Source: Escherichia coli (GTDB lineage Bacteria; Pseudomonadota; Gammaproteobacteria; Enterobacterales; Enterobacteriaceae). Taken from it: a stretch of DNA of 64,000 nucleotides. The position numbers were made by a program. Position 1 is the first letter of the stretch. The number at the start of each line of letters is the position of its first letter. Shown here piece by piece: positions 9,001-15,000 of the stretch. The stretch lies in the NCBI RefSeq assembly GCF_050920415.1, contig NZ_CP169309.1; one strand, given 5' to 3'.

Positions 9001-12000
9001 ACGATGCAGACCTCGATCTCGCCGCCGATATCGCCATGATGGCGAACTTCTTCAGCTCCGGCCAAGTGTGTACCAACGGCACCCGCGTGTTCGTTCCGGC
9101 GAAATGCAAAGTCGCATTTGAGCAAAAGATTCTCACGCGCGTTGAACGCATTCGCGCGGGCGACGTTTTCGATCCGCAAACTAACTTCGGCCCGCTGGTC
9201 AGCTTCCCGCATCGCGATAACGTGCTGCGCTATATCGCTAAAGGCAAAGAGGAAGGCGCGCGCGTACTGTGCGGCGGCGATGTGCTGAAGGGTGATGGCT
9301 TCGATAACGGCGCATGGGTTGCACCGACCGTGTTCACCGATTGCCGCGACGAAATGACTATCGTGCGCGAAGAGATCTTCGGCCCGGTGATGTCGCTCCT
9401 CACGTATGAGTCTGAAGACGAAGTGATTCGCCGCGCCAATGATACCGACTACGGTCTGGCGGCGGGTATCGTCACGGCGGATCTGAACCGCGCGCATCGC
9501 GTCATTCATCAGCTGGAAGCGGGTATTTGCTGGGTCAACACCTGGGGAGAATCCCCGGCGGAGATGCCCGTTGGCGGCTACAAACACTCCGGCATTGGTC
9601 GCGAGAACGGCGTGATGACGCTCCAGAGTTACACCCAGGTGAAGTCCATCCAGGTTGAGATGGCTAAATTCCAGTCCATATTCTAACCAGGAGGTTTATT
9701 TGCAATTTGACTACATCATTATTGGCGCCGGCTCTGCCGGCAACGTCCTCGCGACACGTCTGACTGAAGATCCGAACACTACCGTGCTGCTGCTTGAAGC
9801 GGGCGGCCCGGACTATCGCTTTGACTTCCGTACCCAAATGCCCGCTGCGCTGGCGTTCCCGCTACAGGGTAAACGCTATAACTGGGCCTATGAGACCGAG
9901 CCGGAACCGTTTATGAACAACCGTCGCATGGAGTGCGGACGCGGTAAGGGGCTTGGTGGATCATCACTGATCAACGGCATGTGTTACATCCGTGGTAACG
10001 CGCTGGATCTCGATAACTGGGCGAAAGAACCCGGTCTGGAGAACTGGAGCTACCTCGACTGCCTGCCCTACTACCGCAAGGCCGAGACGCGCGATGTGGG
10101 CGAGAACGACTACCACGGCGCTGATGGCCCGGTAAGCGTGACCACCTCAAAACCGGGTGTCAATCCGCTGTTTGAAGCGATGATTGAGGCGGGCGTGCAG
10201 GCGGGCTATCCGCGCACAGAAGACCTTAACGGTTATCAGCAGGAAGGTTTCGGCCCGATGGACCGCACCGTCACGCCGCAGGGCCGTCGCGCCAGCACCG
10301 CGCGGGGTTATCTCGATCAGGCCAAATCGCGCCCGAACCTGACTATTCGAACTCACGCCATGACCGATCACATTATCTTTGACGGCAAACGCGCGGTAGG
10401 CGTCGAGTGGCTGGAAGGCGACAGCACCATCCCAACCCGCGCAACGGCCAACAAAGAAGTGCTGTTATGTGCAGGCGCGATTGCCTCACCACAAATCCTG
10501 CAACGCTCCGGCGTCGGCAACGCTGAACTGCTGGCCGAATTTGATATTCCGCTGGTGCATGATTTGCCCGGCGTGGGCGAAAATCTTCAGGATCATCTGG
10601 AGATGTACCTGCAATACGAGTGCAAAGAACCGGTTTCCCTCTACCCTGCCCTGCAGTGGTGGAATCAGCCGAAAATCGGTGCGGAGTGGCTGTTTGGCGG
10701 CACCGGCGTGGGTGCCAGCAACCACTTTGAAGCAGGCGGATTTATTCGCAGCCGTGAGGAATTTGCGTGGCCGAATATTCAGTACCATTTCCTGCCAGTG
10801 GCGATTAACTATAACGGCTCGAACGCAGTGAAAGAGCACGGCTTCCAGTGCCATGTCGGATCGATGCGCTCGCCAAGCCGTGGGCATGTGCGGATTAAAT
10901 CCCGCGACCCGCACCAGCATCCGGCGATTTTGTTTAACTACATGTCGCACGAACAGGACTGGCAGGAGTTCCGCGACGCGATTCGCATCACCCGCGAGAT
11001 CATGCATCAACCGGCGCTGGATCAATACCGTGGCCGCGAAATCAGCCCCGGCGCGGAATGCCAGACAGATGAGCAGCTCGATGAGTTCGTGCGTAATCAC
11101 GCCGAAACCGCCTTCCACCCATGCGGTACGTGCAAAATGGGGTACGACGAGATGTCCGTTGTGGATGGCGAAGGCCGCGTGCACGGGCTGGAAGGATTAC
11201 GCGTAGTCGATGCGTCAATTATGCCGCAGATTATCACCGGCAATCTGAACGCCACGACCATTATGATTGGCGAGAAAATGGCGGATATGATTCGCGGACG
11301 AGAAGCGTTGCCGAAGAGCACGGCAAGATATTTTGTGGCAAATGGGATGCCGGTGAGAGCGAAAAAAATGAGTCGTGATTTGAACTAACTCAGGAACCTA
11401 TCAGATTGAGAGTTACCGTTCTACGATAAGGACCGAATCCTTATATAAAAAACATAGGTAACTCTCATGCTTCATATCCAGTATTCATGATGCTGTTTTT
11501 TTGCTGATGTTTTTACCAGAATATTCCTGATACAGACTATTAATTCAAGCTTATCTGCGACAGATTTCATTTTCTGGATATATTATGAGTGACAAATCAA
11601 ACAGGATATCGATCTGATTGAAATTTTATTTTATCTGAAGAAAAAGATTCGTGTTATTCTGTTTATTATAGCTGTTTGTATGACAATGGTGCTATTATTT
11701 CTGTACATCAATAAAGACAATATAAAGCTGAGTTACAGCCTAAAAATAAACCACACAACATCAGGCATACTTGTAAGCTGTGATAGCAATAATAACTTTG
11801 CCTGTCAGACCACAATGACTGAAGATGTTATTCAGCGAATTACGAGTTTTTTAGACCAGTACTAATGCTAAAAATTGCCTTGTCAAAAAAATGGTAGATG
11901 AATACCAACAAAACTCTGGGCAGTAATAAACAGCATTCTGATAGAGAGTGCCTGTATATAGCTGAAGTGACAATGACCGGGAAGGGAACCCGTTTTCAGG

Positions 12001-15000
12001 AATGGATGCCTGTCTTTTTCACTGTAAATATCCTGGCATTACTAATGCCAGGATATTTAAAGAAGAGGAGCATAACCATGACAGAACGGGGTTAAGTCAG
12101 GTTGTCCTTAGCGCTATTCGCAACTTCGTGCCGCCTTCAGGTTTATGTCCAGACTTCATATCTCTCTCAGCAATCCTCAATAATCAGATACACCGCTTTC
12201 ACCGGACCATGAACCCCGACGACTTTGATAAGCTCAATGTCCGCCGTTGAACTAGGACCACTGATGATGTTAATACATGACGGCATTCGTTCACCGGCCT
12301 GCGCTTTCTGATGCAATTTTTCTGCGAGTTGCGCTACACGCGGCAGGATTGTGCTTTTACGCAGGATAAAAAGAGAAGATTCCGGGAGCAGGCTCAATGA
12401 ACGCCCGCGCCCGGCGGCGGAAAAAAGAACCACGCCACCCGATTCGGTTAAACCATATTCAGCATATACGACGCCCACTTTAGCCTGCTCTGCTTGTGAT
12501 ATGTTCTCAATACCTTTCGCCGGATCCCAAACAACGGCATTGCATTCCTGCTGCAAACGTTCGCTAATCCCCAATTCCTCCAGCCTCGTGTCACCGCTAA
12601 TCACGACCGACTGCTCTCCCAGCTCTTTACACAGACATATTGCAGCTTCTGCGGCCTGCGCCTCGCTGGTCAGTTCACAGCGCGTCAACATAACATCGCT
12701 GGCAAACTGGATAAACGCGTCACAGCGCTGCTGTTGGTTAAGTTCGGTAAGCCGCTCGTTAGCATAGTTGTTAAGCGGCGCATCTTCTGCTTGCGGTTCA
12801 AGTCGCTGCGGGCGACCCAGTGCCTGAGCAACGTTACTCAAAAATTCGCTCCGATTATCCATTCTTTTTCTCCTGCGCCTGATGTTTCTTAAACCAACTA
12901 CGGAAACTCTCTCCGTCAGCTTCAGGAAGATCGCGTGCTTCCATCCAGTCGCTAATCGCGCCAAATTTGAGTGGTGTTTTGCCGCCATTGATAAACCAGC
13001 TTGCCGCATGAGCACCAGCCATCATCCCGACTTTCCACAATCCTGGATGACTATTGGCATACGCGAACATTTTTATCGCCCGTTGCTCTGCTTTTGCGGT
13101 GATCCCTTTTTCAGCCATCACCCGACGATGACGCAAAATCAGTTTTGACAGCGGAATACGCACCGGACACACGCTGTCACAAGCTGTGCATAAAGAGCAG
13201 GCGTAGGGTAAATCTTTAAAATCTTTATAGCCGCCAAGTAACGGGGAAATCACCGCACCAATTGGCCCTGGATAAATAGAGCCATATCCATGACCGCCAA
13301 TATGGCGATATGCCGGACAAGTATTCATACAAGCCCCGCAGCGAATACAGCGCAGCACATCCCGAAATTCAGAAGCCAGCACCTCAGAACGCCCGTTATC
13401 GACAATAACCAGATGAAACTCTTCAGGACCATCAACGTGCCCCGCTTCGCGCGGTCCTGTCAGCCAGGTGTTGTATCCCGTCAAACGTGCACCAACGGCA
13501 CTGCGCGCCAGCATGGTGATCAATACATCTACCTCGGCAAACGTGGGGGCAATACGCTCCATTCCCATCACTGCAATATGCGTTTTAGGCAGCGTGGTAC
13601 ACATTCGCGCATTACCTTCATTGGTCACCAGGCATACCGAACCGGTCTCTGCCACCGCGAAATTACAGCCGGTAATACCTATTTCAGCACTGAGGAAATC
13701 TTCGCGGATTTTTTGCCGAATGAATAAGGTCATCGCTTCAGGCGTTTCCGGCCCCTCATAACCCAGACGTTCGTGTAGCACTCGACGGATCTGATGGCGA
13801 TCTTTATGAATTGCCGGGACCACAACATGAGAGGGCGGATCTTGATCCAGCTGGAGAATGTATTCACCCAGATCGGTTTCAATCACCTGAATGCCTGCAT
13901 CCTGCAACACATGATTGACACCAATCTCTTCGGTCACCATCGATTTAGATTTCACCACCTTCCGGGCATTTTTGCGTTGGGCGACCTGTAAAATGTAGCG
14001 GGTGGCGTCTTCTTTAGTTTTTGCAAAATAGACGTGACCGCCGTTTTGCGTCACTTTTTCAGAGAGCTGGTACAGATAAGCGTCGAGATTACTCAGAACA
14101 TGATCACGTATCTGGGCGGCCCGGTCGCGCCACTCCTCCCAGTGCCCTAATTCATCGACCATTTTTTGCCGATTTGCCCCAATACGCTGCTGCGCGTTTG
14201 CCACCGCTTTGCGCATGATCGGATCTTCAATTTGCTGACGGATGCGTGTCTTAAAATCTGTATTACTGGTTTTGATCGACATCTTTATATCCTCAGCGGC
14301 TCATCAGCACTTCAGCAATATGCATCACTTTGACTTTCTGCCCTTCCCGTTGTAATCGTCCACTGATGTTCAGCAGGCAACTCACGTCAGCACCAATTAA
14401 ATACTCAGGGCGGACTTCCATCAGGTGCGAAACCTTTTCTTTCACCATCTCGCCGGATATTTCGGCCATTTTGACCGAGAACGTGCCGCCAAATCCGCAG
14501 CAGGTATCCTGTTCAGCAAAGGTCAACAGCTCCAGTCCACGCACATTTTTCAGCAGCGTAAGTGGCTCGTCCTTCACCCCCAGCTTACGGGCCAGGCTAC
14601 AAGATGGGTGATACACCGCTCTCCCTTGCAAACTGGCACCTACATCGACTACCCCTAATGTATTAACAATAAAAGAGGTGAGATCCTGCATACGCGCGGC
14701 AACCTTTTCGGCACGTGATGCCCATTCAGGCTCATCCGCCAGATACGTTGGGTAACTTTTTACGGCATAGGTACAGGAGCCAGCCGGTGAAATAATGGGA
14801 TCGTCGTTATCCTCCAGTGCGGCGATCAGATTTTTCATCCCTGGAATCGCTTCTTTGATATAACCACTATTGATCGCAGGCTGACCGCAGCATCCCTGTT
14901 TCTCCGGGAAATTTACGCGACAGCCGAGTTTTTCCAGTAGCAGCACGGAGTCTCGTGCCATTCTTGATTTCAGGGCGTCACCAATACAGGTGACAAAGAA

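What the first reader, a model, noticed from the sequence alone, without database searches (positions are those of the whole stretch)
11389..12166. 780-bp AT-rich gap between betA and ykgG with fragmented reading frames (possible decayed gene)
No ORF over 82 aa on either strand. Two consecutive short plus-strand frames (11680..11865 and 11898..12095) encode a hydrophobic N-terminal stretch, as if a small membrane-protein gene (ykgH lies here in K-12, as I recall) has been broken by frameshifts. A nested inverted repeat lies at 11407..11466 just after betA.
Basis: inference. Interest (0 to 1): 0.3.

Follow-up and report, generated by a model that had tools for sequence, protein, structure and literature searches.

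The report
Decayed ykgH gene remnant in E. coli
The AT-rich gap between betA and ykgG is the wreck of the small membrane-protein gene ykgH, broken by two tiny frameshifts and one large internal deletion; it is an ordinary pseudogene that NCBI's pipeline already flags as such in an identical E. coli genome.

Summary
Window 11389-12166 is 778 bp with 36.5% GC.

The core interpretation also holds: this is a decayed ykgH. Intact YkgH (222 aa) matches window 11593-11850 with residues 4-89 (91% identity, E 1e-53). Residues 207-222 match 11876-11923 at 100%, in another frame. Residues 90-206 are missing.

There are three lesions:
- a 1-bp loss in codon 3;
- a net 2-bp loss near 11843-11853;
- loss of 339 bp, replaced by 15 unalignable bases (11860-11874).

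- The main lesion is a deletion, not a frameshift.
- The second ORF (11898-12095) is not YkgH. It is a chance frame over the ykgH 3'UTR and is equally open in K-12.

The same allele is in about 15 of 5426 complete E. coli genomes. PGAP annotates it as a pseudogene in a strain identical over this region. Other lineages broke ykgH independently.

The ykgH promoter motif and the 3'UTR, a putative Hfq-bound sRNA from RIL-seq, are retained. The allele lies in a rare, divergent bet-ykgH haplotype.

Verdict: ordinary and already known.

The parts
11362..11388 (+). 3' end of betA. An A7 run (11362-11368) stands where K-12 has A6. This moves the stop codon and adds six residues (MSRDLN), giving 562 aa instead of 556. 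The stop TAA is at 11386-11388.
   Evidence: Sequence; alignment to K-12. betA is annotated at 1689 bp in MFDS1022581, EC42405, IR53017 and O157, against 1671 bp in K-12.
11407..11467 (.). Nested inverted repeat just after betA. Outer arms are TGAGAGTTACC / GGTAACTCTCA; the inner stem is ATAAGGA-CCGAA-TCCTTAT. No U-run follows it, so it is not a canonical intrinsic terminator. The outer arms are invariant in all E. coli haplotypes I aligned.
   Evidence: (z = -4.1). It occurs once in the window.
11476..11477 (.). Empty insertion site. In O157:H7 strain 2-6-2, the roughly 4.95-kb PAI-X island (ipbA/fimX-hyxR-hyxA-adhesin) sits exactly between these two bases, 9 bp after the inverted repeat. The window, like K-12, lacks the island.
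11479..11502 (+). Weak 7-bp hairpin (11479-11495) followed by a T7 run (11496-11502). It is the most terminator-like element after betA.
   Evidence: Fold; sequence. The consensus scan did not call it because it has too few G-C pairs. The terminator role is inferred.
11557..11584 (+). Retained ykgH promoter motif, GCGACA-16-TATATT.
   Evidence: Consensus scan. The same motif is listed for ykgH, with H-NS, in the RpoD genomic SELEX study PMC3946193.
11585..11926 (+). ykgH pseudogene, from the ancestral ATG (11585-11587) to the ancestral stop TAA (11924-11926). It spans 342 bp, against 669 bp for the intact gene.
   Evidence: PGAP pseudogene in the identical locus.
11592..11617 (+). Lesion 1. 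One A is lost in codon 3 (GTGAACAAA becomes GTGACAAA, at 11592/11593). From the ancestral start this gives MSDKSNRISI and then TGA at 11615-11617.
   Evidence: Alignments; sequence. Shared by EC42405 and 2020CK-00188.
11593..11850 (+). N-terminal remnant, YkgH codons 4-89 (Wzz-like IDL motif, TM1 and the start of the periplasmic domain).
   Evidence: tblastn: 91% identity, E 1e-53. dN/dS is 0.11-0.17 against intact alleles.
11843..11853 (+). Lesion 2. A net 2-bp loss with adjacent substitutions: ATTACTACATTTTTTCAG becomes ATTACGAGTTTTTTAG.
11860..11874 (+). Lesion 3, the deletion junction. Fifteen bases (TACTAATGCTAAAAA) stand where intact alleles have 339 bp, a net loss of 324 bp. YkgH residues 90-206 are gone: the long periplasmic helix and most of TM2.
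   Evidence: 339 bp between GACCAG and TTGCCTTGTC in the reference; structure model.
11876..11926 (+). C-terminal remnant: YkgH codons 207-222 (CLVKKMVDEYQQNSGQ) plus the stop. It is in a different frame from the N-terminal remnant.
   Evidence: tblastn 16/16 identical.
11927..12066 (+). Retained ykgH 3'UTR. In K-12 this is a putative Hfq-associated 3'UTR-derived sRNA. The published northern probes match 11970-12008 exactly. It ends in a hairpin at 12022-12062 (20-nt arms, 95% complementary) that lies between the convergent ykgH and ykgG.
   Evidence: (-32.1 kcal/mol, z = -6.9). Literature: PMC5145812 and PMC8175672.
11898..12095 (+). It is a chance ORF, out of frame with ykgH and lying over the 3'UTR and hairpin. 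It is also open in K-12.
   Evidence: No family hit. By my count on the alignment, window versus K-12 shows 3 synonymous and 5 non-synonymous differences.
12167..12862 (-). ykgG (LutC/YkgG family). This intact flanking gene bounds the gap on the right.

Best explanation
The interval holds a dead copy of ykgH (b0310 in K-12). ykgH is an AT-rich gene found almost only in Escherichia, and it lies between betA and ykgG.

Shown:
- The ancestral start codon, the promoter motif, the first 89 codons, the last 16 codons, the stop codon and the whole 3'UTR are still present.
- A 1-bp loss in codon 3 stops translation after 10 codons.
- A net 2-bp loss near codon 88 shifts the frame again.
- 339 bp covering codons 90-206 have been replaced by 15 unalignable bases.

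Inferred: ORF1 is the old frame read from internal Met33. ORF2 is a chance frame over the 3'UTR.

Inferred from models: the lost protein was a small two-TM inner-membrane protein with a polysaccharide-co-polymerase-like (Wzz-like) fold and no known function. It is dispensable, because E. coli lineages have broken it repeatedly and in different ways.

The rest of the gap is ordinary regulatory DNA shared with strains whose ykgH is intact. It comprises a conserved nested hairpin and a weak hairpin plus U-run after betA, the ykgH promoter, and the ykgH 3'UTR. The 3'UTR ends in a strong hairpin between the convergent ykgH and ykgG. I infer that this hairpin acts as a two-way terminator or RNA-stabilising element.
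For: - tblastn of intact YkgH against the window: residues 4-89 at 91% identity (E 1e-53), residues 207-222 at 100%, nothing for 90-206.
- Base-level alignments with intact alleles, K-12 and FDAARGOS_1282, show the three lesions. The missing stretch measures 339 bp.
- Synteny betB-betA-ykgH-ykgG-ykgF-ykgE is the same as in K-12.
- PGAP annotates window-equivalent 11596-11850 as 'hypothetical protein, incomplete, missing C-terminus' (pseudogene) in strain MFDS1022581, which is 100% identical here.
- Fifteen complete genomes carry the same junction as one ungapped match, so it is not an assembly error. The exact 562-aa BetA allele of the window is on record in 165 blocks of public assemblies. 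A sampled contig shows the same 778-bp betA-ykgG spacing.
- Decay is continuing. A sister genome, 2020CK-00188, has also lost the start codon (ATG to ATA) and one more base inside ORF1.
- Other lineages broke the gene independently: a 118-bp deletion (NRZ14408), an in-frame 168-bp deletion (IR53017), an internal stop Q139* (O157:H7 2-6-2), an IS1 insertion (MB50), and IS1 plus island leaving only the last 51 bp (CE12-1).
- About 10% of 5426 genomes lack 80% coverage of ykgH.
- Neither ORF matches any Pfam or NCBIfam family above its cut-off.
Against: Nothing contradicts pseudogene status.

- Expression was not measured. The promoter motif and start codon survive, so a transcript is probably still made, and short peptides (10 aa from the old ATG, possibly 61 aa from Met33) cannot be excluded by sequence alone.
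- The N-terminal remnant shows low dN/dS (0.11-0.17). Taken alone, that would fit a still-constrained coding sequence. I read it instead as divergence that built up while the gene was intact in a divergent donor lineage, with inactivation coming late.
- The exact deletion end-points are ambiguous, because the 15 junction bases align poorly to either side.
Confidence: 0.96

Rival explanations
1. The truncated locus still encodes a working small membrane protein: the 61-aa ORF1 from Met33 with TM1, or the 65-aa ORF2.
For: ORF1 keeps the YkgH TM1 helix, and its sequence shows low dN/dS against intact alleles. ORF2 is open in every haplotype I looked at, K-12 included. The promoter motif is retained.
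Against: - In my reading of the sequence, no Shine-Dalgarno-like motif lies before ATG 11680.
- The sister genome 2020CK-00188 has a 1-bp deletion inside ORF1, so ORF1 is not conserved among carriers.
- ORF2 has no family hit and is not annotated in K-12.
- ORF2 overlaps a 41-nt palindrome that fixes its 'hydrophobic' codons. By my count on the alignment, its few differences from K-12 are 3 synonymous and 5 non-synonymous.
- PGAP calls the locus a pseudogene.
Confidence: 0.03
2. The DNA is kept mainly for its RNA. The ykgH 3'UTR (11927-12066) would give an Hfq-binding sRNA, or the hairpin would serve as the ykgG/ykgH terminator. Selection on that element would then explain why the deletions remove the coding region but spare the last ~50 bp and the 3'UTR.
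For: [quoted passage not shown] It also ranked high in an sRNA classifier, with RNA-seq reads piling up on the 3'UTR (PMC8175672).
- The probe region is 100% identical in the window.
- The hairpin is strong: -32 kcal/mol, z = -6.9.
- The window-type deletion and the IS1-associated loss in CE12-1 both stop within 1-2 bp of the same point and keep the 3'UTR.
Against: - Northern blots with two probes failed to detect the sRNA (PMC8175672).
- Only UUU follows the hairpin, not the U-rich tail typical of Hfq sRNAs.
- Seven haplotypes show no compensatory changes (0 of 48 pairs).
- The 3'UTR is not clearly better conserved than its surroundings. The 240-bp stretch from the ykgH stop to ykgG is 93% identical to K-12-type strains.
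- Two coinciding junctions could equally reflect an IS1 or deletion hotspot.
Confidence: 0.15
3. The gap is plain intergenic DNA with no gene remnant. This is the refutation condition the reader set.
For: None. No intact ORF is present.
Against: tblastn E 1e-53 to YkgH. Base-by-base colinearity with intact ykgH alleles on both sides of the deletion.
Confidence: 0.01

Closest known systems
ykgH (b0310) of E. coli K-12, 'uncharacterized protein YkgH', 222 aa
   Same: Same position and orientation between betA and ykgG. Same promoter motif, start codon, first 89 codons (91% amino-acid identity), last 16 codons (100%), stop codon and 3'UTR.
   Different: The window copy has a 1-bp loss in codon 3, a net 2-bp loss near codon 88, and has lost codons 90-206. 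It is a pseudogene. Its surviving 5' part is unusually diverged from all intact alleles: dS 0.26-0.37, against 0.10-0.15 between the two intact alleles compared, K-12 and FDAARGOS_1282.
Polysaccharide co-polymerases (PCP: WzzB, WzzE, Wzc, KpsE; Pfam Wzz PF02706 and GNVR PF13807). This comparison concerns the intact YkgH protein.
   Same: - N-terminal 'IDL..L' motif plus TM1, a helical periplasmic domain, and a C-terminal TM2.
- Weak Wzz hits in 4 of 11 family members and GNVR hits in 3 of 11, best E 5e-8.
- A profile hit to WzzB 6rbg, E 0.0025.
- The AF2 model (pLDDT 79) has PCPs as its best PDB matches: 6rbg at E 1.7e-4, TM 0.48; also Wzc, WzzE and KpsE.
   Different: - Much smaller: 222 aa against 325-720 aa.
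- Below Pfam's gathering score in YkgH itself: 19.8 against 25.5 bits.
- No polysaccharide genes nearby. The neighbours are bet and ykgEFG, or an autotransporter adhesin.
- No function has been tested.
Putative ykgH 3'UTR-derived Hfq sRNA (RIL-seq; Melamed et al. 2016, Bar et al. 2021)
   Same: The window keeps the whole region. The published probe sequences match 11970-12008 exactly, and the terminal hairpin is intact.
   Different: In the window, the upstream coding region that would feed a processed 3'UTR fragment is truncated. The sRNA itself was never confirmed by northern blot, even in K-12.
PAI-X / fimX (ipbA, hbiF)-hyxR-hyxA-hyxB island between betA and ykgH in many pathogenic E. coli
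   Same: Same chromosomal site. The O157:H7 island is inserted at window 11476|11477.
   Different: The window has the empty site, as K-12 does.

Membership tests
ykgH ortholog (E. coli b0310) | Significant sequence similarity to YkgH | tested here: met
   tblastn: residues 4-89 at 91% identity (E 1e-53); residues 207-222 at 100%.
ykgH ortholog (E. coli b0310) | Conserved position between betA and ykgG, convergent with ykgG | tested here: met
ykgH ortholog (E. coli b0310) | Intact reading frame of about 222 codons (a functional gene rather than a pseudogene) | tested here: not met
   Stop after 10 codons from the ancestral ATG. Codons 90-206 are absent. The remnants lie in two frames. It is a pseudogene of this family.
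Polysaccharide co-polymerase (Wzz/PCP), for intact YkgH | Pfam Wzz (PF02706) or GNVR (PF13807) domain above the gathering score | tested here: not met
   YkgH: Wzz 19.8 bits against a cut-off of 25.5; GNVR 12.1 against 27.7. Some remote family members hit GNVR at E 5e-8.
Polysaccharide co-polymerase (Wzz/PCP), for intact YkgH | PCP fold: TM1, alpha/beta base with a long periplasmic helix, TM2 | tested here: inconclusive
   AF2 model with pLDDT 79 and pTM 0.62. The top Foldseek PDB hits are all PCPs, but with modest scores (E 1.7e-4, TM 0.48-0.50, rmsd 9-15 Å).
Polysaccharide co-polymerase (Wzz/PCP), for intact YkgH | Encoded with polysaccharide synthesis or export genes; controls chain length or export | tested here: not met
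   The neighbours are bet and ykgEFG, or PAI-X/autotransporter. The functional role cannot be tested with these tools.
Hfq-dependent 3'UTR-derived sRNA | Discrete, Hfq-dependent transcript detected | not testable with these tools
   Literature only. RIL-seq chimeras and RNA-seq pile-up were seen in K-12, but northern blots were negative (PMC8175672; PMC5145812).
Hfq-dependent 3'UTR-derived sRNA | Rho-independent terminator hairpin with a U-rich tail | tested here: inconclusive
   A strong hairpin at 12022-12062, but only UUU follows it. The terminator scan did not list it.
Rfam families | Match to any curated RNA family | tested here: not met
   The only matches are sub-threshold hits of the palindrome to miRNA models: 21-23 bits against gathering scores of 95-100.

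The most novel reading that the evidence does not exclude
The coding part of ykgH is expendable, but its 3'UTR (11927-12066) is a separately selected RNA element. It would be either an Hfq-associated sRNA or the shared ykgH/ykgG terminator. On this reading, independent deletions (this allele and the IS1-associated loss in CE12-1) stop at almost the same base and spare it. The window would then be a natural case of an sRNA outliving its host gene.
Probability: 0.12. Interest if true: 0.35.

Novelty: already known. Interest (0 to 1): 0.1.

Why it matters
It matters little. The result settles the annotation of this interval: a ykgH pseudogene plus ordinary flanking regulatory DNA. It also removes two spurious small ORFs from consideration.

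Three minor points may be useful:
- ykgH is broken repeatedly and independently in E. coli, by deletions, a nonsense mutation and IS1. This argues that the gene, whose function is unknown, is dispensable in many niches.
- The intact protein looks like a miniature polysaccharide-co-polymerase. That gives a testable lead to its function.
- The allele sits in a rare bet-ykgH haplotype about 7% diverged from mainstream E. coli. That is a candidate recombination import and could serve as a lineage marker.

Tried and rejected
- Outgroup search. I scanned one genome per species (genome contigs) for YkgH relatives. It returned only two tiny contigs, one in a Nocardioides and one in an Amycolatopsis assembly, whose YkgH segments are 100% identical to the K-12 protein; I take them to be E. 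coli contamination. I therefore could not test other Escherichia species or find the donor of the divergent haplotype.
- Exact-sequence look-up of the 61-aa ORF1 product: not on record.
- Rfam scan of 11000-12600: nothing real, only sub-threshold miRNA-model hits on the palindrome.
- Covariation in the 3'UTR: 0 of 48 predicted pairs show compensatory change in seven haplotypes, so the structure has no comparative support.
- Counting genomes that keep the 3'UTR: megablast with a 240-bp query at about 93% identity loses sensitivity (4171 genomes against 5154 for the coding sequence). The count cannot be used to compare retention.
- I first thought the 3'UTR was about 99% conserved. That held only against FDAARGOS_1282. 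Against K-12-type strains the 240-bp stretch from the ykgH stop to ykgG is 93% identical, so I dropped the claim.
- Is the nested inverted repeat a dispersed repeat element? It has one copy in the window and one in 75 kb of K-12. A 'distant' search reports a median of 2 places per genome. I could not resolve these; PAI-X splitting the query, or self-matches of the palindrome on the other strand, may explain them.
- IS1 origin of the 15-base junction filler: the filler does not resemble IS1 ends, so this is unsupported.
- Assembly artefact: rejected, because 15 independent complete genomes share the lesions.

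
Full report
**Observation.** The window is E. coli.
- betA ends at 11388, and ykgG, on the minus strand, ends at 12167. The gap of 778 bp has 36.5% GC. In 300-bp windows GC drops to 31-32%, against 51-63% in the flanking genes.
- No ORF touching the gap exceeds 82 aa.
- The nested inverted repeat is real. Perfect 11-nt outer arms lie at 11407-11417 and 11457-11467, with an inner 7-bp stem. The fold z-score is -4.1.

**What it is.**
- Megablast of 11300-12300 against 5426 complete E. coli genomes finds the locus in 5234 of them. In most, the matching stretch is about 325 bp longer and is annotated ykgH.
- tblastn of an intact 222-aa YkgH against the window gives two pieces. 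Residues 4-89 match 11593-11850 at 91% identity (E 1e-53). Residues 207-222 match 11876-11923 at 16/16, in another frame. Nothing matches residues 90-206.
- Base-level alignments with intact alleles from K-12 MG1655 and FDAARGOS_1282 show three lesions:
  1. One A is lost in codon 3 (ATGAGTGAACAAA becomes ATGAGTGACAAA, at 11592/11593). From the ancestral ATG at 11585 this gives TGA at 11615-11617.
  2. A net 2-bp loss with neighbouring substitutions lies at 11843-11853.
  3. The 339 bp between GACCAG and TTGCCTTGTC are replaced by 15 bases (TACTAATGCTAAAAA, 11860-11874) that align poorly to either side.
- The ancestral stop TAA is at 11924-11926.
- PGAP annotates the equivalent of 11596-11850 as an incomplete pseudogene in strain MFDS1022581, which is 100% identical here.

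- ORF1 is the old YkgH frame read from internal Met33 through TM1 to a new stop. Its hydrophobic stretch is genuinely YkgH.
- ORF2 is not YkgH. It is out of frame with the 16-codon C-terminal remnant and runs through the 3'UTR.
- ORF2 owes its hydrophobic codons to a 41-nt palindrome. It is equally open (65 aa) in K-12, where ykgH is intact and nothing is annotated there.
- ORF2 has no family hit. By my count on the alignment, its differences from K-12 are 3 synonymous and 5 non-synonymous.

**Population picture.**
- Fifteen complete genomes carry the same junction as a single ungapped match of at least 98.5% identity.
- The three carriers I aligned share all three lesions. One of them, 2020CK-00188, has decayed further: ATG has become ATA, and one more base is lost inside ORF1.
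- The window's exact 562-aa BetA is on record in 165 blocks of public assemblies. A sampled contig has the same 778-bp spacing between betA and ykgG. The allele is therefore real and moderately widespread, not an artefact.
- ykgH has also been broken in other ways:
  - a 118-bp deletion in NRZ14408;
  - an in-frame 168-bp deletion in IR53017;
  - Q139* in O157:H7 strain 2-6-2;
  - IS1 inside the gene in MB50;
  - IS1 plus island sequence leaving only the last 51 bp in CE12-1.
- Many truncated or frameshifted products turn up in the protein database. About 10% of complete genomes lack 80% coverage of the gene.

**What was lost.**
- YkgH has no close relatives (over 75% identity) outside Escherichia among 5.8 billion proteins.
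- An exhaustive HMMER scan finds a handful of full-length relatives at 21-30% identity. They share an N-terminal (E/D)IDL..L motif, TM1, two cysteines, a WY motif and a C-terminal TM.
- Pfam gives sub-threshold Wzz hits and, for three relatives, GNVR hits, best E 5e-8. A family profile weakly hits WzzB 6rbg.
- An AF2 model (pLDDT 79) has polysaccharide co-polymerases as all its best PDB matches: WzzB, Wzc, WzzE and KpsE, with best E 1.7e-4 and TM about 0.48.
- I therefore describe intact YkgH as a miniature PCP-like two-TM protein. I do not file it as a Wzz family member: the Pfam threshold is not met and the gene context does not fit.
- The deletion removes the long periplasmic helix and most of TM2.
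- The literature gives no tested function. It offers only a predicted inner-membrane location, an altered Congo-red phenotype in the Keio curli screen, and a point mutation in an L-form strain.

**The rest of the gap.**
- The ykgH promoter motif GCGACA-16-TATATT survives at 11557-11584. It is the motif reported for ykgH, with H-NS, by genomic SELEX (PMC3946193).
- After the ykgH stop, the 3'UTR is intact. The northern probes that Bar et al. used for the putative ykgH 3'UTR sRNA match 11970-12008 exactly.
- The 3'UTR ends in a hairpin at 12022-12062: -32.1 kcal/mol, z = -6.9.
- That sRNA was proposed from RIL-seq (PMC5145812) but not confirmed by northern blot (PMC8175672). Seven haplotypes show no covariation, and only UUU follows the hairpin. 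I rate a selected RNA function as possible but unproven (about 0.12-0.15).
- The more conservative reading is that the hairpin is the two-way terminator or stabiliser between the convergent ykgH and ykgG. This is inferred.
- After betA, the conserved nested hairpin is not followed by a U-run. A weaker hairpin with T7 (11479-11502) is the likelier terminator. This too is inferred.

**Context noticed.**
- The window's bet block (5411-11852) is 92.9% identical to K-12, while the rest of the window is 96.8-97.2%.
- The window's betA is only 90-95% identical to 5168 of 5184 E. coli records, and 16 records reach 95%.
- The surviving ykgH codons show dS of 0.26-0.37 with dN/dS of 0.11-0.17. Most of that divergence therefore built up under purifying selection.
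- Together these points suggest a rare, divergent haplotype in which ykgH was inactivated late. It was probably imported by recombination from a distant Escherichia lineage. I could not identify the donor.

**Verdict.** The feature is an ordinary, already annotated pseudogene, and interest is low.

Noticed in passing
window 5411-12870 (betT-betI-betB-betA-ykgH remnant-3' ykgG): This block is far more diverged from mainstream E. coli than the rest of the window. It is 92.9% identical to K-12, against 96.8-97.2% elsewhere. The window's betA is 90-95% identical to 5168 of 5184 records, and only 16 records reach 95%. It looks like a recombination import from a distant Escherichia lineage. The donor was not identified.
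   Followed up: partly
window 11362-11388: betA has an A7 run where K-12 has A6. This shifts the stop codon and adds six residues (MSRDLN), giving 562 aa instead of 556. The 1689-bp form is also annotated in EC42405, IR53017 and O157:H7, so it is a common natural length variant.
   Followed up: partly
window 11476|11477; L013 6582-11529: In O157:H7 strain 2-6-2 the ~4.95-kb PAI-X island (ipbA/fimX, hyxR, hyxA, adhesin/autotransporter) is inserted exactly here, 9 bp after the conserved nested inverted repeat. The window has the empty site. Whether the hairpin plays a part in targeting is unknown.
   Followed up: partly
L013 11637-12305; L010 801-1301; L005 626-1176; L009 2501-2551: ykgH is disrupted independently in other lineages: Q139* in O157:H7 2-6-2, an in-frame 168-bp deletion in IR53017, a 118-bp deletion in NRZ14408, and IS1 plus island leaving only the last 51 bp in CE12-1. 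IS1 also lies inside the gene in MB50 (H91).
   Followed up: partly
window 11875 versus L009 ~2499: The right end of the window's deletion and the IS1 junction in CE12-1 fall within 1-2 bp of each other, at about nucleotide 618-619 of ykgH. This may be an IS1 or deletion hotspot, selection to keep the 3' end, or coincidence. It is unresolved.
   Followed up: no
L014 1-6678 (metagenome contig SRR28082672_1611): A 30%-identical full-length YkgH relative lies about 1.4 kb downstream of a 1608-aa autotransporter. This echoes ykgH lying just downstream of the PAI-X hyx adhesin/autotransporter in E. coli. ykgH may belong functionally to that island rather than to bet or ykgEFG.
   Followed up: no
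window 1-5410: The first ~5.4 kb of the window, upstream of betT, has no counterpart in K-12 330-345 kb, where yahV, pdeL and yahB follow betT. The gene content differs here. I did not examine it.
   Followed up: no
window 11396-11500: A 'distant' BLAST of this 105-nt stretch reports a median of 2 places per E. coli genome (up to 9) and 110 places on plasmids. Yet only one copy exists in the window and in 75 kb of K-12. I did not determine what the extra places are.
   Followed up: partly
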